Shown piece after piece: positions 44,242 through 64,000 of a stretch of 64,000 bases of DNA. The notes under the pieces were generated by a model, which was not told the DNA's origin, did no database searches, and worked only from the letters and a program-made list of their open reading frames with translations. The translations under genes and the position numbers were made by a program. The stretch's first letter is position 1, and the number at the start of each line of letters is the position of its first letter. Source of the stretch: Bacillota bacterium (GTDB lineage Bacteria > Bacillota > Clostridia > Acetivibrionales > DTU013); contig JAEXNT010000031.1 in NCBI GenBank assembly GCA_023439545.1, positions 25,994-89,993 on the forward strand, given 5' to 3'.

Positions 44242-44284
44242 GCTGCAGTAAAAAAGCTGTTAACGGTAAAAGGAGGTAGCCGGT

Positions 44285-47539: not shown

Positions 47540-47620
47540 ATAATAATAGTTTTGTTATGTATAACCCTTAAAATAAAAGTTCTATACTTGCAATATAAAA
47601 TTCAAGGAGGAGGCAGTAAA

Positions 47621-48985: not shown

Positions 48986-49040
48986 TCGCGAGCCGGACAG
49001 GTATAAAAGAGATGTTTGATTTGAACGTATGATATGTGGT

Positions 49041-49069
49041 AAGAGGAGGTTGCGAAAGCTCCTCCTCTT
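49041..49069 (+). terminator. Stem-loop between the SBP and permease genes
   Basis: AAGAGGAGG-ttgcgaaagct-CCTCCTCTT with no strong T run. Confidence 0.45.
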
Positions 49070-49111
49070 ATTATATGCTCCCTAAAAGATATCCGAAAGC
49101 GCGGTGAATTT

Positions 49112-50011
49112 ATGAAAGCTAAAAGAAAACAGAAATCACCAATTACGCCGTACACGATGATAGCTCCGTTTTTTATCTTATACTTTACTTTCAGCCTTTT
49201 TCCAATGCTTTTTTCATTGGGTGTCAGCTTCTTTAACTGGAGTGGTTTCGGACAGGCAAAATTTGTTGGTATAGAGAACTATGTGCGGGTATTTCATGAT
49301 CCCAACTTTTATAAAGCAATAAAGAATGTATTGATTATATTCTGCTTCTCAATCCCGATAGAACTGGCGCTGGGCCTGATGACGGCGACAGCGCTGAAGG
49401 ACTTCTTCTCGAAGACACGCGGCGCATTCCAGCTGTTTAACTTCCTTCCGTATATTACTACGCCTGTTGCAGTCGGTATCATTTTCTCGCTGATGTTCGA
49501 CTGGAAGTCGGGTGTTGTAAACGAATTGATAACGGCGCTCGGAGGTACCTCTGTTTACTGGCTGGGTGTACCGTGGGCATCGAGAGCGGTTGTCGTGGCT
49601 ATGATAGTATGGAAGGGCTACGGCTATAACATGGTTATGTTCCTGGCCGGTCTGTCGACGATCCCGGGTGACCTTTATGAAGCGGCCAAGATCGACGGAG
49701 CCAACTGGTGGCAGGGCTTCAGGAAGATTACCCTTCCGATGCTCAGGCCGATCTTCGTATTTGTTGTCACCACAAGCATCATTAATGCCTGGAAGCTGTT
49801 CGACGAACCTCAGCTGCTATTCTCCGGCAACACACAGCCGATCGGCGGACCGGAGCGCTCAGTCCTGACGGTCATCATGAGATACTATGAATCCGCTTTC
49901 CGTCAGTTCCAGTTCGGTTACGGCTCAGCCATAGCTTATGTACTATTTATAATCATTGCGATTTTCTCGATCGTCAGCGTTAAGTCGATGAATCGCGATA
50001 ACACTATATGA
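49112..50011 (+). CDS. ABC sugar transporter permease
   Basis: EAA loop YEAAKIDGANWWQGFRKITLPM; six helices. Confidence 0.85.
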   Translation: MKAKRKQKSPITPYTMIAPFFILYFTFSLFPMLFSLGVSFFNWSGFGQAKFVGIENYVRVFHDPNFYKAIKNVLIIFCFSIPIELALGLMTATALKDFFSKTRGAFQLFNFLPYITTPVAVGIIFSLMFDWKSGVVNELITALGGTSVYWLGVPWASRAVVVAMIVWKGYGYNMVMFLAGLSTIPGDLYEAAKIDGANWWQGFRKITLPMLRPIFVFVVTTSIINAWKLFDEPQLLFSGNTQPIGGPERSVLTVIMRYYESAFRQFQFGYGSAIAYVLFIIIAIFSIVSVKSMNRDNTI

Positions 50012-50024
50012 GGAGGTGGGACAA

Positions 50025-50852
50025 ATGGAAGAAAAGAAAAGTCTGTATGCAAAGTTACCGGTCAATATCCTTATCGGATTGCTTTCATTAGTAGCGTTGT
50101 TCCCATTCTACCTCATGCTGATAATGGGCACCCACTTGAACGAGGATCTGTATACGGGCATCAAGCTGCTGCCGGGAAATTATTTCTGGGAAAATCTTAA
50201 TACGGTAATGATGATCGACTACCCGAGATATTACCTGAACAGTCTCACGATCGCCATCTGTAATACAATGGGCGCTATTCTGGTAAGCTCGCTGGGCGGC
50301 TACGCTTTTGCGAAGTACAATTTCAAAGGGAAAAAGGGATTTTTCACCTTTGTTATAGCAACTCTCGCAATACCGATGCAGCTGGGTCTTGTCGGATATG
50401 TGCTGGAAATGAAGGCCCTGGGTATAGTCAACACCATCCTGCCGATGATATTCAGCGGTATGGCAAGCGGCTTCGGCACCTTCTTTATGACGCAGTTCAT
50501 AGGTTCCTCGGTCCCTAACGAGATACTCGAGAGCGGACGAATCGACGGATGTACCGATTACGGTATTTTCTTCAAGCTTGTTATCCCGATAATCAAACCT
50601 GCATTCATTACTATAGGACTTCTGATATTCCTGTGGTCATGGAATAGCTACATGGTTCCGCTCGTTATCGTAACGAGGAAGGAATGCTACACAATTCCGC
50701 TGTCCATCGCCATGATCAGTACGGAATTCCGTACGGACTATGCGGCACGTATTTTATCGCTGGCATTTTCTACTATTCCGATCGTAGGATTATTTGCCTT
50801 CGGTTCCAAATATCTGATCCAGGGCTTGACTGCAGGCAGCGTCAAGGGCTGA
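50025..50852 (+). CDS. ABC sugar transporter permease
   Basis: ATG lies 8 nt after AGGAGG. EAA loop LESGRIDGCTDYGIFFKLVIPI. Confidence 0.85.
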   Translation: MEEKKSLYAKLPVNILIGLLSLVALFPFYLMLIMGTHLNEDLYTGIKLLPGNYFWENLNTVMMIDYPRYYLNSLTIAICNTMGAILVSSLGGYAFAKYNFKGKKGFFTFVIATLAIPMQLGLVGYVLEMKALGIVNTILPMIFSGMASGFGTFFMTQFIGSSVPNEILESGRIDGCTDYGIFFKLVIPIIKPAFITIGLLIFLWSWNSYMVPLVIVTRKECYTIPLSIAMISTEFRTDYAARILSLAFSTIPIVGLFAFGSKYLIQGLTAGSVKG

Positions 50853-50874
50853 TCGATCCGAGGTGTTTTTAGAC

Positions 50875-53295: not shown

Positions 53296-53311
53296 GGAAG
53301 AGGTGTACATT

Positions 53312-54253
53312 ATGGTATTAAATTCATTTGGAAAAACGGATCTCAAGGTTTCCGACGTAGGCTTCGGCGCATGGGCAATAGGCGGACTGGGCTGGGGTGA
53401 AGGACCTGATGATGTAAATGCTGTGGAAGCATTGAAAAAGGCATGGGATCTCGGCGTCAATTTCTACGATACATGCGACGCATACGGCAACGGCCACAGC
53501 GAAACGCTTATCGGCGAATTCCTCAAAGGAAGGCGCAATGAAGCCGTTATCGTCACAAAAGGCGGCACGAACTACCGTGTACCCGAACGCAGCAAGAATT
53601 TCTCCCACGACTATCTCATGATGTGTCTTGATGAGAGCCTGCAGCGCCTGCAGACCGATTTCGTGGACGTTTACCTGCTCCATGTGCCGAACGCTGAATG
53701 GCAGGAAAAGGGCAAGGTATTTGAGACCCTCAAGGAAATGAAGAAATCCGGCAAAGCCCGCTATGTCGGTCTCGCAATGTGGCAGGCAGGAGATACGATG
53801 CATGCTTACGAGCATGATACCGAGAATGTTATCGACGTACTCGAGGTCCCGTTCAATATTCTGAACAAAACAAACATCGAAGTCGTAAGAATAGCTAAGG
53901 AACGCAACATTGCAGTGCTGACAAGCCAGCCTCTCGCCAGCGGCATCCTGACCGGAAAATACGGCAGCGATACAAAGTTCGCAGACGGCGACAACCGTAA
54001 GGGCTTCTGGTCTGAGGAACGATTTGCGTCGGTCATCCCCGACATGAAGATCGTCGAGGAATGTGTAAAAGAAACCGGCCTGACCATGGCTCAGCTCGCA
54101 CTTGCCTACAACCTCAGCTATCCGGGCATCCACAGTGTAATTCCGGGCGCCAAGAACGCCTCGCAGGTTGAGAAGAACGTATCCGCAAGCGGAAAGCGCC
54201 TCGACCAGGATATTATGAATAAGCTTGCACAGACCAAGGGCTTCATATTCTAA
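53312..54253 (+). CDS. Aldo/keto reductase
   Basis: FGAWAIGG, DTCDAYGNGHSE, VTKGG, typical AKR tetrad context. Confidence 0.85.
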   Translation: MVLNSFGKTDLKVSDVGFGAWAIGGLGWGEGPDDVNAVEALKKAWDLGVNFYDTCDAYGNGHSETLIGEFLKGRRNEAVIVTKGGTNYRVPERSKNFSHDYLMMCLDESLQRLQTDFVDVYLLHVPNAEWQEKGKVFETLKEMKKSGKARYVGLAMWQAGDTMHAYEHDTENVIDVLEVPFNILNKTNIEVVRIAKERNIAVLTSQPLASGILTGKYGSDTKFADGDNRKGFWSEERFASVIPDMKIVEECVKETGLTMAQLALAYNLSYPGIHSVIPGAKNASQVEKNVSASGKRLDQDIMNKLAQTKGFIF

Positions 54254-54259
54254 AAAATT

Positions 54260-54307
54260 CAGAGGGGGATGCCAGGCCGTAATTACGACGCCTGGTATCC
54301 CCCTCTG
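54260..54307 (+). terminator. Long GC-rich stem-loop after the AKR gene
   Basis: CAGAGGGGGATGCCAGGC / GCCTGGTATCCCCCTCTG, an 18-nt-arm stem with one mismatch and a weak T tract. Confidence 0.5.
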
Positions 54308-54339
54308 ACTAATCTTGTTTTGTATGGAAAGAGGATATT

Positions 54340-56847
54340 ATGAAAACCAGACTTTGCCTTACTGAAAACTGGGAGCTGTTAAAAATAATACCTGCCGGGA
54401 GCATCGATCCTGAAAATCCCGTCCCTGAAACAGGCAGAGAACCCGCAGGCTGGATTTCCGTAAAGAAGATGCCTTCACAGGTTCACGACGTTCTGATTGA
54501 TGAGGGTTACCTGCCGGAGGAAATACGGATAGGCTGGTGCGAATCAGGCGAATGGGTGGGGGATTACGACTGGGTCTACAGATGCCGTTTCGACAGGGAA
54601 CGTGAAGCAAGCGCCGTCCGCCTTTTCTTCGGAGGACTCGACACGATAGCCGACGTTTACCTGAACGGTGTCAAGGCAGGCAGCCACGACAACTTTTACC
54701 TGCCGCAGACGATAGACATAACGCAATATATAGCTGAACACAACACGCTGGTGATACACTTCCATAATATCGAGGACGTGCTCGACAAGCTCACCCTGCC
54801 AAAGGAATGGGAAAAGACCGTCCTGAAATTCAAAATGCTGCGCAAGCCGAAGCACGATTTCCCTGCGGGCGTTACCGAAGGGGCGTCCTACCAGGGTGCT
54901 GTTCCATATTTCGAACCTATTGGCATTTTCCAGCCCGTCTATATAGATTACGTCGACGAAGCCGAATTTACCTGGGACCATATAATTCCCTCCGTTGAAG
55001 CTCCGTATACCGAGGGCAACCTTACAATTACGCTGAAAGGTACAAACGGCGATTCGGTAAAAATCATTGTGTGCGATCCTGAGGGAAACACAGTCATATC
55101 CGATGAAAAATCCGTATCAGGTACATGGAGGCAGCCCTTCAAGCTTGCAGTAAAGGATCCGGAGCTCTGGAACCCGCGCGGTTTCGGAGGCCAGGCCCGT
55201 TACTCCGTTGAAATGCTGCTGATGAGCAATGGGCAGGTTGCGGACAGGATGGAGAAGAAGATCGGTTTCCGCGAAGTCATACAGGACGGTGACCTGGGCT
55301 TCAGGATAAACGGCAGGACGGTCCGCCTGTGGGGCGGAAGCATGGATCCCTTCCAAGATTATACGCACTGCTGGGAGTCGAAACGCGTGCACCGCATCCT
55401 TGATATGTGCGAAAATGCAAACATGAACACGCTGCGCATATGGGGCGAAGGCGTCCCGTATGAGGACGAACTTTACGATGAGGCGGACAGGCGCGGCATA
55501 TTGATATGGCAGGAATTCTACCTCGGGAACGGAGCATATCCGAACAATCCCGAATACCGGGAAGCCTGCAGGCAGGAGGCCATCCACCTCATACTTCGCC
55601 TGCGCTGGCGCCCGTCGCTGCTGCTGTGGTGCGGAGGAAACGAAACCATAATGGGCTCCGAATACATCGACCGCGACATGCACGCGTACGGCAGCGAGAT
55701 GGTGCTCGAAGATTACCCGGCCCTTGTGGACTATTATGACAACGGCAGGTTTTACTTCCCCAATTCGCCGTATGGCGGGGAATGGGCAAACGATCCCCGT
55801 CAGGGAGATTTCCACGTTTATGACGGAGTTTGGGCTTACCCTTACGCAGAGTATCCCAACTTCATAGGGGAAGACATACGCTGCGCGCCTCCCGTGATGC
55901 ACAGTCTGAAACGCATGATAAAGGGCGACCTCTGGCCTGAAGAGTACAGCGGCAAACTGACCCATGGTGACAGGTTCCCCATGCCCGACAGCTGGATGGA
56001 GCGCAGCCATCATTCGGCACTGGGCCATATAAAGACAGGACCTTACTGGGAATACTACGACGCAGATACGCCCGAAGATCATCTGTACCGCTTCGCGGCA
56101 GCCGCGGGCCAGTCCATGCGCCGCTGCATCGAGAAAGTACGCCAGGGCAGCAGGGACGGCGACGTACCGGTAAACAAGCGCATAAAGGGCCATTTTGCAT
56201 GCAAGCTGCTCGATACCTGGCCCAAGGTATACTGTGCCATTATCGACTTCTTCCAGGAGGGCTTCCATTCGTACTATGCCACTGCTGCGGCACAGCGCCC
56301 GATCGCTCTGAGCTTTCAGATAACTCCTAACAGTTACCGTCTGTGGCTCGCCAATGACAGCAGCATCGATGTGAAGGGTGAAGTCACCTTCGGAATGTTC
56401 GATATCGAAAAAAATGAATTTGTCCTGACGGACAAGGTCGACGCAGAGATGCTCAAGGGTCATTCCGGCATTGTGCTGAACCTCGACAAATACAAATTCT
56501 TCTGGAAGACGCTGCTTCTGTATGCTACGTTCACTGACAAGGAAAACGGAATTTATGACCGTGTGAATGATTTTGTCGACGTAGAGCGTCATTACAAATT
56601 CCCGGATGCGAAGCTCAGGGTAATGGTGGAGGGCGATGAGCTCGTAATAACCACCGATAAGTTCGCGCGCTGCATCGAAATCACCGCCGGAAATGAAGAG
56701 ACCGAATTCGGATGGCTGTTCTCTGAAAATTACTTCGACCTGTTCCCTGGTGAAGTCAAACGCGTCAGGATAGTGGCCGGCGGCAGCGCTGAAATAACCG
56801 TGAAGCCGCATTATGCGGATGCTGTTAAGGTAAAATACAGTAAATAA
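54340..56847 (+). CDS. Glycoside hydrolase family 2, beta-mannosidase-like, paralogue 3
   Basis: RIWGEGVPY...ILIWQEF, WCGGNE, FIGED. No signal peptide. Confidence 0.8.
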   Translation: MKTRLCLTENWELLKIIPAGSIDPENPVPETGREPAGWISVKKMPSQVHDVLIDEGYLPEEIRIGWCESGEWVGDYDWVYRCRFDREREASAVRLFFGGLDTIADVYLNGVKAGSHDNFYLPQTIDITQYIAEHNTLVIHFHNIEDVLDKLTLPKEWEKTVLKFKMLRKPKHDFPAGVTEGASYQGAVPYFEPIGIFQPVYIDYVDEAEFTWDHIIPSVEAPYTEGNLTITLKGTNGDSVKIIVCDPEGNTVISDEKSVSGTWRQPFKLAVKDPELWNPRGFGGQARYSVEMLLMSNGQVADRMEKKIGFREVIQDGDLGFRINGRTVRLWGGSMDPFQDYTHCWESKRVHRILDMCENANMNTLRIWGEGVPYEDELYDEADRRGILIWQEFYLGNGAYPNNPEYREACRQEAIHLILRLRWRPSLLLWCGGNETIMGSEYIDRDMHAYGSEMVLEDYPALVDYYDNGRFYFPNSPYGGEWANDPRQGDFHVYDGVWAYPYAEYPNFIGEDIRCAPPVMHSLKRMIKGDLWPEEYSGKLTHGDRFPMPDSWMERSHHSALGHIKTGPYWEYYDADTPEDHLYRFAAAAGQSMRRCIEKVRQGSRDGDVPVNKRIKGHFACKLLDTWPKVYCAIIDFFQEGFHSYYATAAAQRPIALSFQITPNSYRLWLANDSSIDVKGEVTFGMFDIEKNEFVLTDKVDAEMLKGHSGIVLNLDKYKFFWKTLLLYATFTDKENGIYDRVNDFVDVERHYKFPDAKLRVMVEGDELVITTDKFARCIEITAGNEETEFGWLFSENYFDLFPGEVKRVRIVAGGSAEITVKPHYADAVKVKYSK

Positions 56848-56960
56848 TTTTCTATTTACTTATGGATTAATTTCTATATAATGTTATATTAGTGGTAGAC
56901 TAATAAATTAGACTCTGGTTTATATTTCAAATATCTGATTATTTTAAAGGGGATGATGAA

Positions 56961-58010
56961 ATGCATGGAAAGATGAAAGTAGCGGTAATGACTGACATCG
57001 GCAAAATGGAATTCGTGGAGAGGGACATTCCTCAGGCAAAGCCGGGAGAAGTCCTGGTCAAAATAGAATGCGTGGGAGTCTGCGGCTCGGATCTGCATTA
57101 CTTCGAAACGGGCAGAATAGGCAATTTCATAGTAAAACCGCCATTCGTGCTCGGGCATGAGGCGAGCGGAGTCGTAGTCGAGGCAGGCGCCGGTGTAACC
57201 GGCCTGAAGCCTGGAGACCGGGTTGCGCTTGAGCCTGGAAAGACCTGCGGGCATTGCGAATACTGCAGAAATGGATTGTACAACCTGTGCCCGGACGTCG
57301 AGTTCTTTGCCACGCCGCCATATGACGGAGTTTTTCAGGAGTATGTGGCGCATGAAGCCGATCTGTGCTTCAAGCTCCCGGATAATGTGAGCATGATGTC
57401 CGGAGCTCTGATAGAACCGCTGGCCGTCGGTTTCCACGCCGCGAACCAGGCCGGCGCCCACGTCGGGCAGACTGCAATGATAACTGGTTCCGGCTGCATC
57501 GGGCTTGTTACGCTGCTGGCGTTGAAATCCATGGGTATCACCGAGATCTATGTGTCCGATATCGAGCAGAAGAGACTGGACAAGGCGTTGGAACTCGGTG
57601 CGACGAAGGTCATTAACGCCAGGCTGCAGGATCCGGTGAAAACAGTCATGGAGCTGACGGGCGGAAGAGGCGTCGATATAGCGTTCGAGACTGCCGGCGC
57701 CGAAATAACGGCGGGACAGCTCATTGAGGTAACCCACAAGGGCGGCACGATAGTCTTTGTAGGCTACAGCGGGAAGGGCAGCATCAACCTGCCCGTTAAC
57801 ATGGCGCTGGATAAAGAGCTTACTATGAAGACGATTTTCCGCTACAGGCATATTTATCCGATGGCGATCAAAGCAGTTGCCGGCGGCAATATCGATCCCG
57901 AAAAGATCGTGACGGCCCGTTTTGATTTCGACGATATACAGAGAGCCATGGACGAGAGCATCAACAACAAGGCGGAGATTGTCAAGTCAGTTATACAAAT
58001 AGCGAAGTAG
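56961..58010 (+). CDS. Zinc-dependent polyol dehydrogenase (sorbitol/L-iditol dehydrogenase-like MDR)
   Basis: CGSDLH, GHEASG, structural-zinc CGHCEYCRNGLYNLC, GSGCIG Rossmann motif. An alternative start is at 56973. Confidence 0.85.
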   Translation: MHGKMKVAVMTDIGKMEFVERDIPQAKPGEVLVKIECVGVCGSDLHYFETGRIGNFIVKPPFVLGHEASGVVVEAGAGVTGLKPGDRVALEPGKTCGHCEYCRNGLYNLCPDVEFFATPPYDGVFQEYVAHEADLCFKLPDNVSMMSGALIEPLAVGFHAANQAGAHVGQTAMITGSGCIGLVTLLALKSMGITEIYVSDIEQKRLDKALELGATKVINARLQDPVKTVMELTGGRGVDIAFETAGAEITAGQLIEVTHKGGTIVFVGYSGKGSINLPVNMALDKELTMKTIFRYRHIYPMAIKAVAGGNIDPEKIVTARFDFDDIQRAMDESINNKAEIVKSVIQIAK

Positions 58011-58074
58011 ACGATAGGAAAGCAGTTATTAAATTTCAGGCAATTCATAAAAATCACTGTCTTATTCCAGAACT

Positions 58075-58110
58075 GCCCGGTTTCAACCTTTTGAAACCGG
58101 GCTTCTTCTG
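58075..58110 (+). terminator. Intrinsic terminator after the dehydrogenase gene
   Basis: GCCCGGTTTCAA-cctt-TTGAAACCGGGC followed by TTCTTCT. Confidence 0.75.
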
Positions 58111-58197
58111 ATATATCCGACATTTTGTTTAAATATGCTTACAGGCGTGCTATAATAGTTGTGGTAATACATACTACAAGCAAATTTGGAGGATTCA

Positions 58198-59427
58198 ATG
58201 ACACTTCGAAAAGACGCAGACCAGATCATTACAGCCGCAATCCAATCGGCGCTGCCGGATGCGGCAGTGGAGCGTGCGCTCAATAGCAGGAGCTTCCCCG
58301 GCAGGGTATTTCTTGTTTCAGTCGGAAAAGCCGCCTGGCAAATGGCAAAAACGGCTGCGGATTTTTTGGGAGATAAGGTTACGGATGGCCTGGTTATAAC
58401 AAAATATGAGCATTCAAAAGGGGAAATAGCACGTGTTCGCGTGTTTGAGGCCGGGCATCCCATGCCCGACGCCAATTCCTTTCTGGCGGCAGAGGAAGCG
58501 CTAAAATTGACGTCAGGTTTACTCCCCGACGATACCGTGCTTTTTCTATTATCGGGCGGAGGGTCTGCACTGTTTGAAAAGCCGCTGGTACCGCCGGCGG
58601 AGCTGCAGGACATAACAAAACAGCTGCTTGCCTGCGGCGCTGATATTGTAGAAATGAACATCGTCCGTAAGAGGCTTTCTGCTGTAAAGGGCGGGCGGTT
58701 TGCGCTGCATTGTAAGCCTGCGAAGGTATTTACCATCGTCTTGTCGGACATTATCGGAGATCCGCTCGATATGATCGCGTCGGGACCGGCATACCCCGAT
58801 TCGTCAACCTGCGAGCAAGCGATGGAAATTGTAAAAAGGTACGATTTGCATCTTTCCGGACAGGCTCTGGATTGCCTCAAAACTGAGATGCCTAAAACGC
58901 TGGAGAACGTGGAGACGCTTGTGACAGGCAGCGTCAGACAACTGTGCGCTTCTGCCGAGGCGACATGCATCAAGCTGGGATACCGTCCGATTGTTCTGAC
59001 GGACAGCCTGTGCTGTACCGCAAGGGATGCAGGAAGCTTTCTCGCGTCCGTTGCGCGGTATCATGCCAAAACGGATGTATCGCTTGCGTTTATTGCAGGC
59101 GGTGAAACTGTGGTGCAGTTGAAAGGAAACGGCAGGGGAGGCAGGAATCAGGAACTTGCTCTGGCGGCGGCGGCAGGCATTGACGGTCTCGAGGATACCG
59201 CGTTATTTTCCTTGGGTTCAGACGGGACGGACGGACCCACAGATGCTGCCGGCGGCTATGTGGACGGACATACCGCACATGTGCTTTCGGAGGCTGGAAT
59301 ATCTATTTTGGGCGAGCTTGAAAACAATAATGCGTATTTTGCCCTGGGAAAATGCGGCGGTCTTGTTAAAACCGGAGCAACCGGCACCAACGTGAACGAT
59401 CTGTCGGTTCTATTGATTAAAAGATAA
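58198..59427 (+). CDS. Glycerate 2-kinase-like protein (DUF4147 + MOFRL, TtuD/GckA type)
   Basis: ATG lies 5 nt after GGAGG. Contains SGGGSALF, and GGETVV...GRGGRNQE in the MOFRL domain. Confidence 0.8.
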   Translation: MTLRKDADQIITAAIQSALPDAAVERALNSRSFPGRVFLVSVGKAAWQMAKTAADFLGDKVTDGLVITKYEHSKGEIARVRVFEAGHPMPDANSFLAAEEALKLTSGLLPDDTVLFLLSGGGSALFEKPLVPPAELQDITKQLLACGADIVEMNIVRKRLSAVKGGRFALHCKPAKVFTIVLSDIIGDPLDMIASGPAYPDSSTCEQAMEIVKRYDLHLSGQALDCLKTEMPKTLENVETLVTGSVRQLCASAEATCIKLGYRPIVLTDSLCCTARDAGSFLASVARYHAKTDVSLAFIAGGETVVQLKGNGRGGRNQELALAAAAGIDGLEDTALFSLGSDGTDGPTDAAGGYVDGHTAHVLSEAGISILGELENNNAYFALGKCGGLVKTGATGTNVNDLSVLLIKR

Positions 59428-59440
59428 AGAAAAATATAAT

Positions 59441-59480
59441 AAGCACAGACGCCTCTGCTTTTGCGGAGGCGTCTGTGCTT
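59441..59480. terminator. Stem-loop between convergent genes (bidirectional terminator candidate)
   Basis: AAGCACAGACGCCTC / GAGGCGTCTGTGCTT, a 15-bp stem, A/T-rich on both sides. Confidence 0.6.
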
Positions 59481-59516
59481 TAGGAGAGGTTGCTATATAA
59501 GAATTAGATTTTTTGA

Positions 59517-60404
59517 TCAGGGTTTTTTTATCTCCGCTTTCCCGATTTCCTCGTAATAATTTGCTATGGCGCTGTGATCACACTGGCCGCAGTTATTGGC
59601 ATGGAGGTATTGAAGCATTTCCATCACGGACGCTGTCAATGGCAGAGGTGAGCCGACACTGTGTCCGGTTTCCAACGCATTGTTAAGATCTTTTATGTGC
59701 AGGTCTACTTTGAAGCCCGGTTTGAAGTTACGGTCAAGTATCATAGGCGCCTTTGCATTCATCACGGTTGAACCGGCAAGGCCGCCTTTTATCGCATTAA
59801 AAACCAACTCGGGATCAACGCCGGCCTTGGTTGCCAAAAGAAACGCTTCTGAGACTGCCGCAATATTAACTGCCACTATGATTTGGTTAGCCAGCTTTGT
59901 TGTATTACCCGCGCCTATATTGCCGCAATAAACTGCGCTGCCTCCCATAGCCATCAGGATATTATAGACACGATCGAAGATTTCTTTCCTGCCTCCGACC
60001 ATTATGGATAGCGTACCGTCGATCGCTTTGGGTTCTCCGCCTGAAACAGGTGCATCCAGCATTTCCACACCCTTTTCTGCGCATGCCTTGTAAACTTCCT
60101 GGGAGGCGAGCGGCGCGATGGAGCTCATATCGATAAGAATACTGCCCGGCTTCGCGCCTTCCAGAACGCCGTTTTTACCGAGGACGGCCGCCTTGACATG
60201 GGGGGAGTTGGGCACCATGGTAATGATGATCTCGCTTTGCGCGGCAGCGTCCCTGGCGGAATCGGCTGCAGCAGCGCCAAGAGTGGTCAGAGCGCTTATA
60301 TTTTCAGCAGTAATATCGTAAACAGCCAGTTCATAGCCCTTTTTCAGCAGATTTTTTGCCATGGGCTTGCCCATGATACCAAGTCCGATAAAACCAATTT
60401 TCAT
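59517..60404 (-). CDS. Beta-hydroxyacid dehydrogenase (tartronate-semialdehyde reductase / 3-hydroxyisobutyrate dehydrogenase family)
   Basis: MKIGFIGLGIMGKPMAKNL Rossmann start; 295 aa; GarR/LtnD-like layout. Confidence 0.8.
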   Translation of the reverse strand: MKIGFIGLGIMGKPMAKNLLKKGYELAVYDITAENISALTTLGAAAADSARDAAAQSEIIITMVPNSPHVKAAVLGKNGVLEGAKPGSILIDMSSIAPLASQEVYKACAEKGVEMLDAPVSGGEPKAIDGTLSIMVGGRKEIFDRVYNILMAMGGSAVYCGNIGAGNTTKLANQIIVAVNIAAVSEAFLLATKAGVDPELVFNAIKGGLAGSTVMNAKAPMILDRNFKPGFKVDLHIKDLNNALETGHSVGSPLPLTASVMEMLQYLHANNCGQCDHSAIANYYEEIGKAEIKKP

Positions 60405-60418
60405 AATATCTACCTCCG

Positions 60419-61354
60419 TTATTTCGCAAGATTGTACATGCTTTCGATTGCAGTCCTTATGCTTTGCGTCGTCAGGCCCAGATAATCCAGTATTTCATCA
60501 TATGAGTGTGCGCTGCATCCAAAATGGTCGTGAATACCCATATGCTCCATGGGTCTGCCGAGGTGACGGACAGCGCGTCCGATTGCCGATCCGAGCCCGC
60601 CGATCACGCTGTGTTCTTCGGCAGTCACTATAGCTTTGCAGCTGCCGGCCAGATCGCATATCACCTGATCGCTGAGCGGCTTGATGGTGCTCACATTGAC
60701 CACCTTGACGGAAATGCTTCCTTCGACAAGCCGGGCGGCTTCCAAAGCTTTGACACACATGAAACCCGTGGCAAACACAGCTATGTCGCTGCCTTCCCGA
60801 AGAACAGAGGGGACTCCGATCTCAAACGGAGCGTCTTCGGATGTCACGTTATCGTAACTGTTACGGTTGAGACGTATATAGCAGGGACCATTGTGCGCCG
60901 CCATTGCGCGGACGGCCTTGACGGTTTCGTTTGCGTCGACGGGGCATAAGACCGTCATGTTGGGAATGGCGCTCATTATTGCCATATCCTCCACTGACTG
61001 ATGCGTCGCGCCGTCTCCAAAATCGGAGCAGCCGGAGGAAGAGCCGCAGATTTTGACATTTAAGCGGCCTATGGCGACCGTCTGACGGATCTGATCGTAG
61101 GCGCGGCCTGCTGAAAACACCGCGAAGGAGTTGGTAAAGGCGGTTTTGCCCGATAGTGCAAGGCCCGCCGCAACTGATGTCATGTTGGCTTCGGCAATGC
61201 CCATTTCAAAATAACGTTCGGGAAAAGCGTTCTGAAACATAAAAGACATGGTGGATTTTCCAAGATCGGCTTCGAGTACGACGATATTCGGGTTCTCTTC
61301 TCCCAAAGCCACCAGTGTCGAGCCGTAAGCAGTTCTTTGATTATTGCAACTCAT
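60419..61354 (-). CDS. Transketolase, C-terminal subunit, copy 2
   Basis: FEMGIAEANM; 311 aa; a diverged paralogue of 30017-30949. Confidence 0.9.
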   Translation of the reverse strand: MSCNNQRTAYGSTLVALGEENPNIVVLEADLGKSTMSFMFQNAFPERYFEMGIAEANMTSVAAGLALSGKTAFTNSFAVFSAGRAYDQIRQTVAIGRLNVKICGSSSGCSDFGDGATHQSVEDMAIMSAIPNMTVLCPVDANETVKAVRAMAAHNGPCYIRLNRNSYDNVTSEDAPFEIGVPSVLREGSDIAVFATGFMCVKALEAARLVEGSISVKVVNVSTIKPLSDQVICDLAGSCKAIVTAEEHSVIGGLGSAIGRAVRHLGRPMEHMGIHDHFGCSAHSYDEILDYLGLTTQSIRTAIESMYNLAK

Positions 61355-61372
61355 TGTTTTCTCCTTTCGCCA

Positions 61373-62203
61373 TCAGGCCAGTTCGCGCAATGCGCGCTCA
61401 TAGTTTTCTTCAGTCAGTGCGGCGTTATGGAATGCGGCATTGTTCTCAGCGAAGCTGACGCCCCGTCCCTTCACTGTGTGTGCTATGATTACTGTGGGCT
61501 GACCTTCAATTTGGCCGGCTTCGTCAAAAGCAGTGAGGATTTGTTCCATATTATGACCGTCGATATCGATGACATGCCATCCGAAAGCGCTCAATTTCTC
61601 ATTAAGCGGGTTGGTATTGAGGCGTTCCACTACTGGCCCTGTCGCCTGAAGATCGTTTTTGTCGATGATCGCGATGAGGTTATCCGTTTTGTAGGCGCTT
61701 GCGGCCATCGCAGCCTCCCAGATCTGTCCCTCGGCTATCTCGCCGTCTCCCATCAGCACATATACCTTGCGTGAAATTTTGTTGAGGCGCATACCGAGCG
61801 CCATACCGAGTCCAATAGAGAGTCCCTGACCAAGCGAGCCAGTTCCGGCTTCGACGCCGGGGGTTTTCAATACGTCAGGATGGCCTTGCAGATGCGAACC
61901 GATGGCTTTGGTTGTCTTCAGATCCTCCACGGGGAAGAATCCGGCCTCGGCCAAAGCGGCATATTGCAGGATGGCGACATGACCCTTGCTGAGCAGAAAT
62001 CTGTCGCGGTCAGGGTTTTTGGGCTGAGATGGGTCATAATGCATTTTATGAAAATAGAGTGCCGCGACGATATCTGCTGCGGAGTTGGAACCGCCGATAT
62101 GACCGGCGACCCCCACGCCCATGCTGACTATTACGTCACGTCTAAGCTGCTGCGCTTTCGCAGTCAGGAATTCCAGATGTTGCTTACTGTACATATCTGT
62201 CAT
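61373..62203 (-). CDS. Transketolase, N-terminal subunit, copy 2
   Basis: GHIGGSNS, SKGH, GDGEIAEGQIWEA. Its ATG overlaps the stop of the upstream isomerase gene (ATGA). Confidence 0.9.
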   Translation of the reverse strand: MTDMYSKQHLEFLTAKAQQLRRDVIVSMGVGVAGHIGGSNSAADIVAALYFHKMHYDPSQPKNPDRDRFLLSKGHVAILQYAALAEAGFFPVEDLKTTKAIGSHLQGHPDVLKTPGVEAGTGSLGQGLSIGLGMALGMRLNKISRKVYVLMGDGEIAEGQIWEAAMAASAYKTDNLIAIIDKNDLQATGPVVERLNTNPLNEKLSAFGWHVIDIDGHNMEQILTAFDEAGQIEGQPTVIIAHTVKGRGVSFAENNAAFHNAALTEENYERALRELA

Positions 62204-63057
62204 CTCCTTTCATTTTGTTCGAAGTGATTCTTTTGTTCGAAGGAATTCTTTTGTTCGAAGTAATTCTTGAGAAGTCTGAGCGTTGCGGGCGCGTCCCTGT
62301 TCAGATCCGATGAGTACGCCTCGCAGCTGATACGCCCGTCATATCCCGCCTCGATTACAGTGCTGCAAAACTCCCGGTAAAGCTCTTCAGATCCGTCGCC
62401 TTCACGCGGAAAGACGCGTCCCGCCGGGTTTGCAACATGGATATGGGCAAGGTAAGCCTTACCGTATTCGGAAATGTGCGACAGAGGCTCGTTTTCTTCC
62501 ACCAGATGATAAAGATCGGCCAGAACCCTGACCTGTTTGCCGCCCACATCGCGGGCAAGCTGTACGCCCTCTTCGAAGGTATTGATGATATTGCATTCGG
62601 CTTTACGCAAAGGCTCGATGGTAATGGTCATACCATACCGGGACGCCACCGTGTCCGCATATTTCAAGAGGCGGGCGATCTGCGCATAGGCCTCCGGTTT
62701 GCTGAAGCCCTCCGGATACCTTTTGGCGCCGCCGCTTCCGAAAACGATATTTTCAGCGCCCAACTTCACAGCTGCAACGACAGCCCTGTCCACATAGGAG
62801 AAAACCGCGTCGAAATCAACCTCCGGCCCTGTTAATCTCATAGCGGGAGAGAAAAAGTTGTTGCAGCTTGCACACTGAAGTCCGCTTTCGTTTAAGTCTT
62901 CGAGCAGCCGGTTGAATCCCGCTTCAGGCAGGCTCATGATCTCTGCGAGCGGCAGCTCGGCGTAGTCATAGCCGATGCGGCGAAATAGCGCCAGATGTTC
63001 CGAGCCGGTACCGTCGGGTGTATTGGACAACATGTTTAAGCAGCAGCCGTATTTCAT
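62200..63057 (-). CDS. Sugar-phosphate isomerase/epimerase (xylose-isomerase-like TIM barrel)
   Basis: Start MKYGCCLNML at 63057. AP_endonuc_2-type pattern (ITIEPL, HIHVANP). The repetitive C-terminal tail is encoded by an 18-bp tandem repeat. Confidence 0.75.
   Translation of the reverse strand: MKYGCCLNMLSNTPDGTGSEHLALFRRIGYDYAELPLAEIMSLPEAGFNRLLEDLNESGLQCASCNNFFSPAMRLTGPEVDFDAVFSYVDRAVVAAVKLGAENIVFGSGGAKRYPEGFSKPEAYAQIARLLKYADTVASRYGMTITIEPLRKAECNIINTFEEGVQLARDVGGKQVRVLADLYHLVEENEPLSHISEYGKAYLAHIHVANPAGRVFPREGDGSEELYREFCSTVIEAGYDGRISCEAYSSDLNRDAPATLRLLKNYFEQKNSFEQKNHFEQNERR
62213..62266. repeat. 3 x 18-bp tandem repeat at the 3' end of the isomerase gene
   Basis: The plus strand reads TTTTGTTCGAAG(TG/GA/TA)ATTC three times (62213-62230, 62231-62248, 62249-62266). 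It encodes FEQKNx hexapeptide repeats on the minus strand. Confidence 0.9.
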
Positions 63058-63141
63058 AAGATAGTGATCCTTTGCAATTATTAATTTAATATATCCAGAT
63101 GATTGCAATGCATCTGCAGGATTAAATATGTTACGAGTTAA

Positions 63142-63170
63142 ATTGTAATACATATTACATAACACGTCAA
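63142..63170 (-). promoter_or_regulatory. Promoter of the isomerase-tkt-reductase operon, overlapped by the palindrome TGTAATA-CA-TATTACA
   Basis: On the minus strand: TTGACG (63170-63165), 17-nt spacer, TACAAT (63147-63142). The palindrome at 63144-63159 covers the spacer and the -10 box. Confidence 0.6.
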
Positions 63171-63191
63171 TGCCTTTTTAACTATAGAAAG

Positions 63192-63243
63192 TTGACAGAT
63201 GCCAATATTTTAATTAGAATTAGATTGTAATAATATAATACAA
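63192..63243 (+). promoter_or_regulatory. Promoter of the FadR-type gntR gene plus a second TTGTAATA-type operator
   Basis: TTGACA (63192-63197), 17-nt spacer, TAGAAT (63215-63220), then TTGTAATAATATAATACAA (63225-63243) 4 nt downstream. Confidence 0.6.
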
Positions 63244-63267
63244 CTAACGTATATTGGAAGGTAAAAT

Positions 63268-63981
63268 ATGCCGGTTCAATCGATTGATCGTCAAAATATA
63301 TCCGAGATGGTTTTTAAGCAGCTTATGGAGCTCATCTCCTCAGGTGAATGGAAGCAGGGGGAGAAGATTCCCGCGGAAACCGAGCTCGCCGAGACCATGG
63401 GGGTCTCGCGCGTTTCCATTCGTGCGGCCTTGCAAAAGCTTTCGAGCCTTGGGCTCATTGAGCGCAAGCAGGGGCACGGTACTATCGTATGCGATCTTTC
63501 AAGCGGCCAGCAGATTAACGGTCTGGTTCCTATACTGGTGCTTTTGCCGCCCGACATACAATCCATGAATGAATACCGGCTGATCCTCGAATGCGGTGCG
63601 GCGGAATTGGCTGCGCTTCGCTGCGATGATAAGATCATAAAAAGACTCGAAGACAATCTGGACGAGATGGAGCGCTTAAATGTAGAAAACAAAGACAGCG
63701 CGAGCGTTGACGTAGACTTTCATTATATTATTGCCGAAGCGACGAAAAATCCGCTTATCATCAAAACTCACCAGATCATGAGGGAATCCTTCCTGGAGTG
63801 TATGAGGACATATAAGCGTCTGACGGATGTCCGCGCAGGCTTCTACTATCATCGTAATCTGATCGAGGCCCTTCGCAACAGGGATTCTTTCGGTGCAAGA
63901 AGAATTATGGAGGAGCACCTCAAGAAAAATCAGATAGACCTGGAACGGGCCATGGAAAAGGCCGAAATTACTAAAGAATAG
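63268..63981 (+). CDS. GntR-family regulator, FadR subfamily (FCD domain)
   Basis: Winged HTH ...PAETELAETMGVSRVSIRAALQKLSSLGLIERKQGHGTIV plus an all-helical C-terminal domain. Confidence 0.85.
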   Translation: MPVQSIDRQNISEMVFKQLMELISSGEWKQGEKIPAETELAETMGVSRVSIRAALQKLSSLGLIERKQGHGTIVCDLSSGQQINGLVPILVLLPPDIQSMNEYRLILECGAAELAALRCDDKIIKRLEDNLDEMERLNVENKDSASVDVDFHYIIAEATKNPLIIKTHQIMRESFLECMRTYKRLTDVRAGFYYHRNLIEALRNRDSFGARRIMEEHLKKNQIDLERAMEKAEITKE

Positions 63982-64000
63982 AATCAAAAAATATCGAGAG

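What the first reader, a model, noticed from the sequence alone, without database searches (positions are those of the whole stretch)
56961..63981. Second transketolase-centred module with polyol dehydrogenase, MOFRL glycerate kinase, beta-hydroxyacid dehydrogenase and TIM-barrel isomerase under a FadR-type GntR
The minus-strand operon runs isomerase, tktN, tktC, then GarR-like reductase. It converges on a plus-strand Zn-polyol dehydrogenase and a glycerate-2-kinase-like gene.

The parts recall three known schemes (recalled from memory):
- acid-sugar (threonate/erythronate) pathways, which pair an LtnD-type dehydrogenase with an OtnI-type TIM-barrel isomerase
- the glycerate pathway, which uses tartronate semialdehyde reductase and glycerate kinase
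- the D-apiose transketolase route, which pairs a TIM-barrel isomerase with a split transketolase

The specific combination, with a transketolase in place of a DUF1537 kinase and decarboxylase, matches none of them as far as I know. This is a candidate variant C4/C5 sugar or sugar-acid pathway.
Basis: inference. Interest (0 to 1): 0.6.

Follow-up and report, generated by a model that had tools for sequence, protein, structure and literature searches.

The report
Transketolase sugar-acid cassette beside apiose genes
The genes are real and form a widespread but apparently uncharacterised bacterial cassette that seems to split a sugar acid with a transketolase and recover the rest as glycerate, and in this genome it sits directly beside genes for the plant sugar apiose that lie just past the window end.

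Summary
All seven genes are present and intact. GarR passes NCBI's equivalog cut-offs for tartronate semialdehyde reductase. The kinase matches the Thermotoga MOFRL "glycerate kinase, putative" structure. The split transketolase keeps its cofactor motifs.

The window stops at the regulator. A contig identical to the window's last 5.7 kb continues with a Zn-dehydrogenase, a TIM barrel, D-apionate lactonase-like and oxidoisomerase-like genes, a 3-oxoisoapionate decarboxylase-like TIM barrel and an ABC transporter.

The isomerase-transketolase-GarR cassette is not unique. Transketolase accompanies the isomerase in 42 of 53 well-flanked loci from other species. It usually comes with a GntR regulator, a dehydrogenase, a transporter (often a carboxylate type) and one of two unrelated glycerate kinases.

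A 15-nt operator is shared by the isomerase and kinase promoters. The Zn-dehydrogenase at 56961 lacks it and has its own promoter and terminator.

Best reading, inferred: the transketolase cleaves an unphosphorylated ketol sugar acid (here probably 3-oxo-isoapionate) into a C2 unit and a C3 oxo-acid, which goes to glycerate and 2-phosphoglycerate. No characterised operon I could reach matches. The substrate is unproven, and L-erythrulose is the main rival.

The parts
56961..58010 (+). Zn-dependent alcohol/polyol dehydrogenase (ADH349); doubtful member of the system
   Evidence: Pfam ADH_N and ADH_zinc_N. The best NCBIfam hit is L-idonate 5-dehydrogenase at 250 bits, below the 469 cut-off. It has its own promoter-like site at 56855-56882 and is followed by a strong terminator. 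No GntR#1 operator was found upstream. It keeps this position only in L001 and L002.
58075..58102 (+). Intrinsic terminator after the Zn-ADH gene
   Evidence: Perfect 12-bp stem (7 G-C pairs), 4-nt loop, followed by a T-rich tail.
58128..58178 (+). Glycerate kinase promoter (TTTAAA-17-TATAAT, with TG) and operator GTAATACATACTACA at 58164-58178
   Evidence: Promoter scan. The 15-mer matches the isomerase-promoter operator at 14 of 15 positions. These are the only two places in 64 kb within 3 mismatches. The motif is conserved upstream of the kinase in L003 and L004.
58198..59427 (+). MOFRL-type glycerate 2-kinase
   Evidence: DUF4147 + MOFRL domains. PDB 2B8N, 'glycerate kinase, putative', scores 396 bits. 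In other cassette loci a PF02595 glycerate kinase takes its place.
59441..59480 (.). Likely bidirectional terminator between the convergent kinase and GarR genes
   Evidence: 18-nt inverted repeat, 94% complementary, 4-nt loop, flanked by A-rich and T-rich runs.
59517..60404 (-). GarR, tartronate semialdehyde (2-hydroxy-3-oxopropionate) reductase
   Evidence: Passes two NCBIfam equivalog cut-offs: 491 against 397 and 425 against 340.75. PDB 1VPD, E=1e-126. Present in 37 of 42 well-flanked cassette loci.
60419..61354 (-). Split transketolase, pyrimidine-binding/C-terminal subunit
   Evidence: Transket_pyr + Transketolase_C. PDB 6YAJ, E=1.6e-79. Head-group residues are R7, S34, S106 and R164. 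The canonical His is replaced by Ser in 59 of 61 cassette homologues.
61373..62194 (-). Split transketolase, ThDP-binding N-terminal subunit
   Evidence: Transketolase_N. PDB 6YAK, E=3.9e-85, with the GDGE...N and GH.GGS motifs aligned.
62200..63057 (-). Xylose-isomerase-like TIM-barrel isomerase/epimerase (ISO), first gene of the operon
   Evidence: AP_endonuc_2. Far below all NCBIfam cut-offs: IolO 58, Hyi 56.7, OtnI 43. Invariant E148, D181, H207 and E246 across 43 homologues. Within two genes of transketolase in 38 of 53 well-flanked loci.
63142..63170 (-). Operon promoter TTGACG-17-TACAAT, overlapped by the palindromic operator TGTAATAcaTATTACA (63144-63159)
   Evidence: The operator is conserved at this position in L002-L007, and a related motif occurs at cassette promoters in distant genera.
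63192..63240 (+). Promoter of the regulator gene (TTGACA-17-TAGAAT) with a second, imperfect operator-like repeat
   Evidence: The 16-nt direct repeat GA[AG]TTA[AG]ATTGTAATA occurs at 63135-63150 and 63217-63232. Sequence.
63268..63981 (+). FadR-subfamily GntR regulator (GntR#1), divergent from the operon
   Evidence: GntR + FCD domains. A GntR homologue accompanies 34 of 42 well-flanked cassette loci.

Best explanation
GntR#1, the isomerase, the split transketolase, GarR and the glycerate kinase form a conserved catabolic cassette. The Zn-ADH (ADH340) and TIM barrel just past the window end probably belong to it too. I read it as a kinase-independent 'transketolase shunt' for sugar acids that carry a terminal ketol group (HOCH2-CO-).

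Proposed steps:
1. A dehydrogenase creates the ketol sugar acid. In this genome that is the D-apionate oxidoisomerase ApnO, encoded about 4.3 kb beyond the window end.
2. The transketolase transfers the C2 ketol to glyceraldehyde-3-phosphate, giving xylulose-5-phosphate. A C3 oxo-acid is left: tartronate semialdehyde from a linear 4-keto-pentonate, or hydroxypyruvate from 3-oxo-isoapionate.
3. The TIM-barrel enzyme either sets the donor's stereochemistry or interconverts hydroxypyruvate and tartronate semialdehyde.
4. GarR reduces tartronate semialdehyde to D-glycerate.
5. The kinase makes 2-phosphoglycerate.

GntR#1 represses the operon and the kinase gene through the operator GTAATACATAYTACA. 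Here the cassette would serve as the lower pathway of an oxidative D-apiose route: uptake by the ABC system, then apionolactone, apionate and 3-oxo-isoapionate.

Shown by the data: gene identities, conserved synteny, the shared operator, and the apionate genes next door. Inferred: every substrate, the role of the isomerase, and the acceptor.
For: Enzyme identities:
- GarR passes equivalog cut-offs and matches 1VPD at E=1e-126.
- The kinase matches 2B8N at 396 bits.

Glycerate is the end product:
- 18 of 42 well-flanked cassette loci carry a glycerate kinase of either of two unrelated families, 12 PF02595 and 6 MOFRL.
- In the apionate-linked relative L094, a PF02595 kinase sits directly after GarR in place of the MOFRL one.
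- A few loci add a 2-hydroxyacid dehydrogenase, sometimes adjacent to the kinase.

The substrate looks like an acid that is not phosphorylated:
- TRAP, TTT or GntP carboxylate transporters occur in 13 of 42 loci.
- The compact operon in L041 is GntR-SDR-DctPQM-ISO-TKN-TKC-GarR-GlxK, and its only kinase is the glycerate kinase.
- The cassette transketolase keeps both head-group arginines and the serine, and has a clade-specific His-to-Ser change.

Co-regulation: the operator at the isomerase and kinase promoters is shared and phylogenetically conserved.

Link to apiose:
- The window is 100% identical to L089 over 5,673 bp. L089 continues with ADH340, a TIM barrel, ApnL-like, ApnO-like (PDB 5T57, E=5e-66), OiaC-like, SBP and ABC genes.
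- The same juxtaposition is kept in L002-L004, L007/L094 and L083, and in Clostridium sp. AM58-1XD, L045.
- Window-type cassettes have no transporter of their own, whereas 33 of 42 generic ones have one nearby.
- The apionate block is joined to different downstream modules in other genomes. The transketolase cassette occupies that slot here.

Precedent (established knowledge): AptAB cleaves apulose-4-phosphate, as I recall at a tertiary carbinol (MetaCyc PWY-8089, cited in PMC13001218). Sulfo-TK cleaves an unphosphorylated anionic ketose with glyceraldehyde-3-phosphate as acceptor (PMC9594981).
Against: - No enzyme was assayed, and no substrate is shown.
- The locus also keeps an OiaC-like TIM barrel overlapping ApnO. 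It is about 48% identical to proteins that JGI names 3-oxoisoapionate decarboxylase. That enzyme would turn 3-oxo-isoapionate into L-erythrulose and bypass the proposed cleavage.
- The apionate block has its own regulator and its own operator (AWCATATRAYGTAT, found only upstream of ApnL). The two modules are therefore separately controlled and could be mere neighbours.
- Most cassette loci (38 of 42) have no apionate genes, so the cassette's ancestral substrate is something else.
- In L045, ApnL is split and OiaC is truncated, which weakens that independent juxtaposition.
- The isomerase would need different roles with linear and branched donors.
- The key apiose paper (Carter et al. 2018) was not readable here. 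I cannot exclude that it already discusses this gene neighbourhood.
Confidence: 0.4

Rival explanations
1. Erythrulose cleavage. ApnO and the OiaC-like decarboxylase make L-erythrulose, as in the known decarboxylase route for D-apionate. The cassette transketolase then uses L-erythrulose as ketol donor (L-erythrulose + G3P gives Xu5P + glycolaldehyde). It would replace the LerK/LerI/DerI steps. GarR, the kinase and the isomerase would serve another purpose or a side branch.
For: - The OiaC-like gene is always coupled to ApnO and is conserved.
- No erythrulose kinase or isomerase lies in the locus; V-ATPase genes follow GntR#2.
- In L045, TKN-TKC-ISO follow the apionate block without GarR.
- L-erythrulose is a classical transketolase donor (established knowledge).
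Against: - It leaves GarR, the operator-linked glycerate kinase and the isomerase without a role. It also leaves toxic glycolaldehyde without an outlet.
- The generic cassette points to an acid substrate and a glycerate product, given its carboxylate transporters and two glycerate kinase families.
- Only 2 of 5 carbons would be recovered.
Confidence: 0.2
2. Neighbours only. The cassette degrades some other pentonate or pentose through the same transketolase, tartronate semialdehyde and glycerate logic, and is merely adjacent to a mobile apionate block in this lineage.
For: - There are two separate regulators and operator sets.
- The apionate block occurs as a self-contained unit elsewhere: L084-L086, L092, L097.
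- 38 of 42 cassette loci lack apionate genes.
- The ADH340-TIM278 pair also accompanies the isomerase in L061, where no apionate genes are visible on the short contig.
Against: - The window-type cassette has no transporter other than the apionate-block ABC system.
- The adjacency persists over 66-87% isomerase identity and recurs in a Clostridium sp. genome, L045.
- The site upstream of ADH340 in L004, L007 and L094 reads GTAATACATATAACG(TAT), overlapping both operator motifs.
Confidence: 0.2
3. A GarR-like LtnD/DenD oxidises threonate or erythronate, an OtnI-like isomerase makes 3-oxo-tetronate, and the transketolase (in place of OtnK/OtnC) cleaves it to glyoxylate plus a C2 unit.
For: - The family-level resemblance: a beta-hydroxyacid dehydrogenase plus a PF01261 isomerase.
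- 3-oxo-tetronate carries a ketol group (chemistry).
- Carboxylate transporters occur in many cassette loci.
Against: - The reductase passes the GarR cut-offs and fails ThreonDh (195 against 350).
- The isomerase fails OtnI (43 against 325).
- Glyoxylate has no outlet in the cassette.
- The conserved glycerate kinases and the extra dehydrogenase would have no role.
Confidence: 0.07
4. An ordinary pentose-phosphate split transketolase that happens to sit among unrelated sugar genes, or a sulfoquinovose sulfo-TK cluster.
For: - Split transketolases are common housekeeping enzymes in Bacillota (established knowledge).
- The sulfo-TK TK-plus-isomerase layout looks superficially similar (PMC11659671).
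Against: - Tight conserved synteny with ISO, GarR, GK, GntR and transporters across genera, and a shared operator.
- No YihQ, SqvD, SqwI (PF02502) or SqwF (PF00465) was seen among the annotated window genes or the recurrent gene clusters of cassette loci. The SF-transketolase residues (Ala and Asp) are not present (PMC9594981, PMC11659671).
- A second split transketolase lies in the same window.
Confidence: 0.04

Closest known systems
Apulose-4-phosphate transketolase route for D-apiose (ApsI, AplK, AptA/AptB; MetaCyc PWY-8089)
   Same: A split transketolase paired with a PF01261 TIM-barrel isomerase in a locus connected with D-apiose. As I recall, that transketolase cleaves next to a tertiary carbinol.
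   Different: - There is no FGGY kinase, so the donor would be unphosphorylated.
- The subunits are 42% and 34% identical to E. coli SE15 AptA/AptB homologues.
- Head-group residues are R,S,S,R here against A,T,N,G.
- GarR and a glycerate kinase are attached, which that route lacks.
Oxidative D-apionate pathway with the xylose-isomerase-family decarboxylase (ApsD, ApnL, ApnO, OiaC, then LerK/LerI/DerI)
   Same: ApnL-like, ApnO-like and OiaC-like genes and an ABC transporter lie immediately beyond the window end.
   Different: No LerK, LerI or DerI is present. The transketolase-GarR-kinase cassette stands where other genomes carry FGGY plus class II aldolase, or DUF1537 plus PdxA.
Glycerate pathways: gcl-hyi-glxR-glxK (glyoxylate) and garL-garR-garK (glucarate/galactarate) of E. 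coli
   Same: A C-C bond enzyme yields tartronate semialdehyde, GarR/GlxR reduces it to D-glycerate, and a glycerate kinase follows. In the gcl operon a ThDP enzyme and a PF01261 isomerase are also adjacent.
   Different: A transketolase stands in place of glyoxylate carboligase or the GarL aldolase. The isomerase is far below the Hyi cut-off. In this genome the kinase is MOFRL type.
Sulfo-TK pathway for sulfoquinovose (SqvD, SqwGH, SqwI, SqwF)
   Same: A split transketolase cleaves an unphosphorylated, anionic ketose with G3P as acceptor, and the leftover aldehyde is reduced. It occurs in anaerobic Bacillota and is sometimes combined with transaldolases. Some cassette loci also carry transaldolases.
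   Different: The accessory families differ: SqwI is PF02502, SqwF is PF00465 and SqvD is FucI-like (PMC9594981). Here the anion would be a carboxylate and the product is fed into glycolysis rather than excreted. The transketolase head-group residues differ (PMC11659671).
DUF1537 acid-sugar pathways (LtnD/DenD, OtnI, OtnK, OtnC)
   Same: A beta-hydroxyacid dehydrogenase and a PF01261 isomerase acting on small sugar acids.
   Different: The curated models for LtnD and OtnI are not met. No DUF1537 kinase or class II aldolase-type decarboxylase is in the locus.

Membership tests
Apulose-4-phosphate transketolase pathway (AptAB route) | FGGY apulose kinase (AplK) encoded with the transketolase | tested here: not met
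   No FGGY gene lies in window 56.9-64 kb or in the 17 kb continuation. An AplK-like hit (25-26% identity) appears in only 3 distant loci.
Apulose-4-phosphate transketolase pathway (AptAB route) | Transketolase subunits orthologous to AptA/AptB | tested here: not met
   42% and 34% identity to the E. coli SE15 homologues, no closer than to the window's other split transketolase. Four head-group residues differ: R,S,S,R against A,T,N,G.
Oxidative D-apionate pathway | D-apionate oxidoisomerase ApnO | tested here: met
   The neighbour gene (L001:3870-4730) matches PDB 5T57 over its full length, E=5e-66. 5T57 is named ApnO in bioRxiv 10.1101/2020.08.24.261826. JGI names homologues of about 50% identity D-apionate oxidoisomerase. 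The gene lies outside the window.
Oxidative D-apionate pathway | D-apionate lactonase ApnL | tested here: inconclusive
   Precomputed Pfam Apionate_lact_N/M hits. NCBIfam NF049900 scores 298 bits, below its 750 cut-off.
Oxidative D-apionate pathway | 3-oxoisoapionate decarboxylase followed by erythrulose kinase and isomerases | tested here: inconclusive
   The TIM barrel overlapping ApnO is 48-49% identical to two proteins JGI names 3-oxoisoapionate decarboxylase. No LerK, LerI or DerI candidates are in the locus. Activity is untested.
Tartronate semialdehyde reductase (GarR/GlxR) | Score above the curated equivalog cut-off | tested here: met
   NF008592 scores 491.1 against 397. TIGR01505 scores 425.3 against 340.75. 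PDB 1VPD scores 425 bits.
MOFRL glycerate 2-kinase | DUF4147 + MOFRL architecture and similarity to a solved glycerate kinase | tested here: met
   Pfam scores are 263 and 115 bits. PDB 2B8N scores 396 bits. The archaeal NCBIfam equivalogs are below cut-off (243 against 550), so regiospecificity is inferred.
DUF1537 tetronate pathway (LtnD/OtnI/OtnK/OtnC) | LtnD-type dehydrogenase and OtnI isomerase above cut-off, plus a DUF1537 kinase | tested here: not met
   ThreonDh scores 195 against 350. OxoTetrIsom scores 43 against 325. No SBD_N/NBD_C gene is in the locus.
Hydroxypyruvate isomerase (Hyi) | Score above the TIGR03234 or PRK09997 cut-off | tested here: not met
   56.7 against 353 and 36.3 against 465. 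It may still work like Hyi, but that is untested.
Sulfo-TK pathway | YihQ, SqvD (FucI-like), SqwI (PF02502) and SqwF (PF00465) present; SF-transketolase head-group residues Ala and Asp | tested here: not met
   None of these families was seen among the window genes scanned or among the recurrent gene clusters of cassette loci. The transketolase has Ser and Ser at those positions. Family assignments are from PMC9594981 and PMC11659671.
FadR-subfamily GntR regulators | N-terminal GntR HTH plus C-terminal FCD domain; palindromic operator at the target promoter | tested here: met
   GntR scores 70 bits and FCD 88 bits. The palindrome TGTAATAcaTATTACA overlaps the -10 region of the operon promoter. 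Binding itself is not testable here.

The most novel reading that the evidence does not exclude
A fifth, carbon-conserving route for D-apiose. A split transketolase cleaves unphosphorylated 3-oxo-isoapionate into a C2 unit (giving xylulose-5-phosphate) and hydroxypyruvate, which is recovered as 2-phosphoglycerate. This would be one member of a widespread, undescribed family of 'carboxy-TK' pathways, the carboxylate counterpart of sulfo-TK. Anaerobic Bacillota, including gut and rumen lineages, would use them to ferment pentonic and related sugar acids with no sugar kinase.
Probability: 0.3. Interest if true: 0.75.

Novelty: new variant of a known kind. Interest (0 to 1): 0.62.

Why it matters
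If the model holds, transketolase would be a recurrent catabolic C-C lyase for unphosphorylated acidic sugars, not only a pentose-phosphate enzyme. Until now that role is known only from the apulose-4-phosphate and sulfoquinovose cases.

It would assign a function to a cassette present in dozens of anaerobic species, among them Faecalicatena, Robinsoniella, Enterocloster, Anaerofilum, Youngiibacter and Flexilinea.

It would also add a carbon-efficient lower branch to the breakdown of apiose, a pectin sugar. The transketolase clade has an altered head-group pocket and could be of use in biocatalysis. The operator and regulator pair gives a direct experimental handle for finding the inducer.

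Tried and rejected
- **Plasmid search.** A megablast of the region against plasmids found nothing.
- **Exact-protein look-ups.** Look-ups using the longest-ORF starts failed until the isomerase start was corrected.
- **Carter et al. 2018.** The paper could not be read by DOI, PMC id or PubMed id. Statements about the known apiose enzymes rest on secondary papers, JGI names and memory.
- **Literature searches.** Searches for a transketolase / tartronate semialdehyde / apionate / erythrulose pathway found nothing relevant.
- **Metagenome scan with ApnO.** It gave only six loci.
- **TRAP binding protein.** Its PDB matches carry no ligand names and did not identify the substrate.
- **Cassette dehydrogenases.** They are equidistant (about 30-35% identity) from both Zn-ADHs of this genome, so no orthology could be assigned.
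- **Transketolases next to ApnO in L088 and L095.** These belong to other clades, and the L095 one comes with an FGGY kinase. They do not support the cassette-apionate link.
- **Apionate-block operator.** It is absent from the cassette promoters.
- **Sulfo-TK reading.** Considered and rejected on accessory families and transketolase residues.
- **Structure prediction.** I did not run structure prediction or fold search, because fold similarity would not have separated the competing substrates.

Full report
**1. The observation**

- Zn-ADH: 56961-58010 (+).
- DUF4147/MOFRL kinase: 58186-59427 (+).
- Beta-hydroxyacid dehydrogenase: 59517-60404 (-).
- Transketolase Pyr/C half: 60419-61354 (-).
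- Transketolase N half: 61373-62203 (-).
- AP_endonuc_2 TIM barrel: 62200-63165 (-).
- GntR+FCD regulator: 63268-63981 (+).

Three gene starts need correction.

- The isomerase begins at the ATG at 63057, behind an AAAGGA ribosome-binding site. Only this 285-aa form is on record in public assemblies.
- The ENA gene calls on the identical contig give a 273-aa transketolase N half and a 409-aa kinase. These correspond to starts at 62194 and 58198.

Curated models sharpen two identities.

- The reductase passes the equivalog cut-offs for 2-hydroxy-3-oxopropionate (tartronate semialdehyde) reductase, 491 against 397 and 425 against 341. It fails the cut-offs for L-threonate dehydrogenase (195 against 350) and sulfolactaldehyde reductase (223 against 348). 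Its best solved relative is the tartronate semialdehyde reductase structure 1VPD, E=1e-126.
- The kinase matches 2B8N, 'glycerate kinase, putative', at 396 bits.

The transketolase halves match the Carboxydothermus split transketolase (E=4e-85 and 2e-79) with the cofactor motifs in place.

The TIM barrel matches no curated family. IolO scores 58, Hyi 57 and OtnI 43 bits, all far below cut-off. It does keep an invariant Glu-Asp-His-Glu set across 43 homologues.

**2. Transcription units and regulation**

The four minus-strand genes are 5-18 bp apart.

In the 210-bp gap between the isomerase and the regulator there are two divergent promoter-like sites, TTGACG-17-TACAAT (-) and TTGACA-17-TAGAAT (+). 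A perfect palindrome, TGTAATAcaTATTACA (63144-63159), overlaps the -10 region of the operon promoter.

The same 15-mer, matching at 14 of 15 positions, lies just after the -10 of the kinase promoter (58164-58178). Within three mismatches, these are the only two places in the 64-kb window.

The motif is conserved at both positions in orthologous loci, and upstream of the next dehydrogenase gene in L003, L004, L006 and L007. A related motif (up to two mismatches) sits at dehydrogenase or transketolase promoters of cassettes in distant genera: L015, L028, L031, L053, L056, L057 and L070.

The kinase is therefore very probably co-regulated with the operon.

The Zn-ADH at 56961 is different.

- It has its own promoter-like site.
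- It is followed by a 12-bp-stem terminator (58075-58102).
- It lacks the operator.
- It keeps this position only in the closest relative.

An 18-nt inverted repeat (59441-59480) between the convergent kinase and GarR genes looks like a bidirectional terminator.

**3. What lies beyond the window**

An ENA metagenome contig (ERZ24911385 NODE_191, 86 kb) is 100% identical to window 58328-64000 and continues it. After the regulator come, on the same strand:

- a second Zn-ADH (340 aa);
- a TIM barrel of 278 aa, IolO-like but below cut-off;
- a 634-aa protein with Apionate_lact_N/M domains (NCBIfam D-apionate lactonase, 298 bits, below the 750 cut-off);
- a 286-aa PGDH_C protein that matches PDB 5T57 over its full length, E=5e-66;
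- an overlapping 285-aa TIM barrel, 48-49% identical to proteins JGI names 3-oxoisoapionate decarboxylase;
- a sugar-binding protein, an ABC ATPase-permease fusion and a permease;
- a second GntR/FCD regulator, then unrelated V-ATPase genes.

PDB 5T57 is the D-apionate oxidoisomerase ApnO according to bioRxiv 10.1101/2020.08.24.261826. JGI names homologues of about 50% identity the same way.

The finding is thus one half of a D-apiose/D-apionate utilisation locus.

**4. The cassette is widespread**

I scanned one genome per species with an alignment of isomerase homologues. This gave 80 loci, mostly Clostridia (Lachnospiraceae, Oscillospiraceae, Youngiibacter, Robinsoniella, Faecalicatena, Enterocloster, Anaerofilum), plus Flexilinea and others.

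Of the 53 loci with at least 4 kb on both sides, 42 carry both transketolase halves within 9 kb. In 38 of the 53, a transketolase half lies within two genes of the isomerase. Among those 42 loci:

| Feature | Loci (of 42) |
|---|---|
| GarR | 37 |
| GntR | 34 |
| Zn-ADH or SDR | 34 |
| Any transporter | 33 |
| TRAP, TTT or GntP carboxylate carrier | 13 |
| Glycerate kinase (12 PF02595, 6 MOFRL) | 18 |
| Apionate genes | 4 |

A few loci add a 2-hydroxyacid dehydrogenase, sometimes next to the kinase. Some carry transaldolases.

A compact example is L041: GntR-SDR-DctPQM-ISO-TKN-TKC-GarR-GlxK. The only kinase there is the glycerate kinase.

The cassette transketolase keeps both head-group arginines and the serine. 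It replaces the canonical histidine with serine in 59 of 61 sequences.

**5. How the cassette most likely works**

Two non-homologous glycerate kinases recur at the same place, and GarR meets equivalog standard. Together these make D-glycerate the near-certain end product and tartronate semialdehyde (or hydroxypyruvate) its precursor.

The carboxylate transporters, the upstream dehydrogenases and the absence of a sugar kinase point to an unphosphorylated keto sugar acid as the transketolase donor.

The chemistry then follows, as inference:

- A terminal ketol acid HOCH2-CO-CHOH-CHOH-COO- (a 4-keto-pentonate) gives tartronate semialdehyde plus a C2 unit.
- The branched 3-oxo-isoapionate, HOCH2-CO-C(OH)(CH2OH)-COO-, gives hydroxypyruvate. 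A Hyi-like reaction would convert that to tartronate semialdehyde.

The closest precedents are the apulose-4-phosphate transketolase (PMC13001218, citing Carter et al.) and sulfo-TK, which cleaves an unphosphorylated anionic ketose with glyceraldehyde-3-phosphate as acceptor (PMC9594981).

The layout also echoes two E. coli pathways, from established knowledge:

- gcl-hyi-glxR-glxK, which is a ThDP enzyme, a PF01261 isomerase, a tartronate semialdehyde reductase and a glycerate kinase;
- garL-garR-garK.

Here a transketolase stands in place of the carboligase or aldolase.

**6. The link to apiose, and its weak points**

In favour of a functional link:

- The juxtaposition is kept across relatives with 66-87% isomerase identity: L002-L004, L007/L094 and L083.
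- It recurs in Clostridium sp. AM58-1XD (L045), where ApnL-ApnO-OiaC-SBP-ABC-TKN-TKC-ISO lie on one strand.
- In L094, a PF02595 kinase directly follows GarR in place of the MOFRL kinase.
- Window-type cassettes have no transporter other than the apionate ABC system.
- In other genomes the same apionate block is joined to alternative downstream modules. These are FGGY kinase plus class II aldolase (L097, L085), PdxA plus DUF1537 kinase (L087, L096), or nothing nearby (L084, L090, L092).

Against it:

- The apionate block has its own regulator. Its operator (AWCATATRAYGTAT) occurs three to five times upstream of ApnL in the window-type loci and is absent from the cassette promoters.
- The conserved OiaC-like gene should divert 3-oxo-isoapionate to L-erythrulose.
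- In L045, ApnL is split and OiaC is truncated.
- The transketolases next to ApnO in L088 and L095 belong to other clades. The L095 one comes with an FGGY kinase, an isomerase and an apiosidase, which is the known apulose-type layout.

My estimates are as follows.

| Reading | Confidence |
|---|---|
| General mechanism (transketolase cleaves a keto sugar acid, C3 goes to glycerate) | about 0.65 |
| That mechanism with 3-oxo-isoapionate as the donor in this genome | about 0.4 |
| L-erythrulose as the donor | about 0.2 |
| Mere adjacency to the apionate block | about 0.2 |

**7. Comparison with the known systems**

- **AptAB route:** not a member. There is no kinase, identity is 42% and 34%, and the head-group residues differ.
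- **DUF1537 tetronate pathways:** not a member. The LtnD and OtnI models fail, and there is no DUF1537 kinase.
- **Sulfo-TK:** not a member. The accessory families and the transketolase residues differ.
- **Classical glycerate pathways:** not a member. There is no Gcl or GarL, and the isomerase fails the Hyi model.

It shares its glycerate end with the glycerate pathways and its cleavage logic with the AptAB and sulfo-TK routes.

Full-text searches for a transketolase-dependent sugar-acid or apionate pathway returned nothing. However, the primary apiose paper could not be read.

**8. Verdict**

I rate it a new variant of a known kind: a widely conserved, apparently uncharacterised transketolase-GarR-glycerate kinase cassette, here attached to the oxidative D-apiose genes. 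The substrate and the role of the isomerase remain to be shown by experiment.

Noticed in passing
window 30017-39899: The first split transketolase (30017-31809, minus strand) sits near DhaK/DhaL (34054-35691), a GntR/UTRA regulator, a weak transaldolase-like 448-aa gene and a lactate/glycolate-permease family gene. Its C-terminal subunit has head-group residues R,S,N,N, unlike the second module. It could conceivably handle erythrulose or dihydroxyacetone-type products.
   Followed up: partly
window 62213-62268: The 3' end of the isomerase gene carries an 18-bp tandem repeat (3.1 copies, 92% matches) that encodes FEQKN-type repeats. This makes the protein about 12-15 residues longer than its homologues of 265-273 aa.
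   Followed up: partly
L083 (JGI Ga0209123_1002158), whole 17.4-kb contig: The isomerase is at one end and kinase/GarR/TKC at the other, with the regulator, ADH340, TIM278 and the whole apionate block between them. This implies either two cassette copies flanking the block or a circular or tandem arrangement.
   Followed up: no
L095 (Christensenellales MAG JBMNLV010000014.1) 1-10864: One locus holds both D-apiose routes. LacI-TKN-TKC-FGGY kinase-Fucose_iso_C-Apiosidase lies divergent from Gfo/Idh/MocA dehydrogenase-TIM barrel-ApnL-ApnO.
   Followed up: partly
L089 7860-8075 (about 2.2 kb beyond the window end): Five copies (within two mismatches) of the motif AWCATATRAYGTAT are clustered upstream of the ApnL-like gene, and relatives show similar clusters. 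This is a likely operator array for the second GntR/FCD regulator. The site upstream of ADH340 in L004, L007 and L094 overlaps both operator types.
   Followed up: partly
L052, L056, L057, L070, L034: Some cassette loci carry a parallel SDR - IolO-like TIM barrel - transaldolase (- GarR) set. A transaldolase could yield tartronate semialdehyde from a 5-keto-hexonate, which would be a carboxylate counterpart of sulfo-TAL.
   Followed up: no
window 41743-56847: Upstream of the finding lie three GH2 beta-mannosidase-like genes, an aldo-keto reductase, a CUT1 ABC transporter and a His_kinase/AraC-type two-component pair. This looks like a separate oligosaccharide utilisation unit.
   Followed up: no
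L009-L013 (Youngiibacter and relatives) about 6000-13500: The cassette is preceded by TctC/TctA tricarboxylate-type transporter genes and a PdxA-family dehydrogenase, between the regulator and the Zn-ADH. This hints at a different entry substrate.
   Followed up: no
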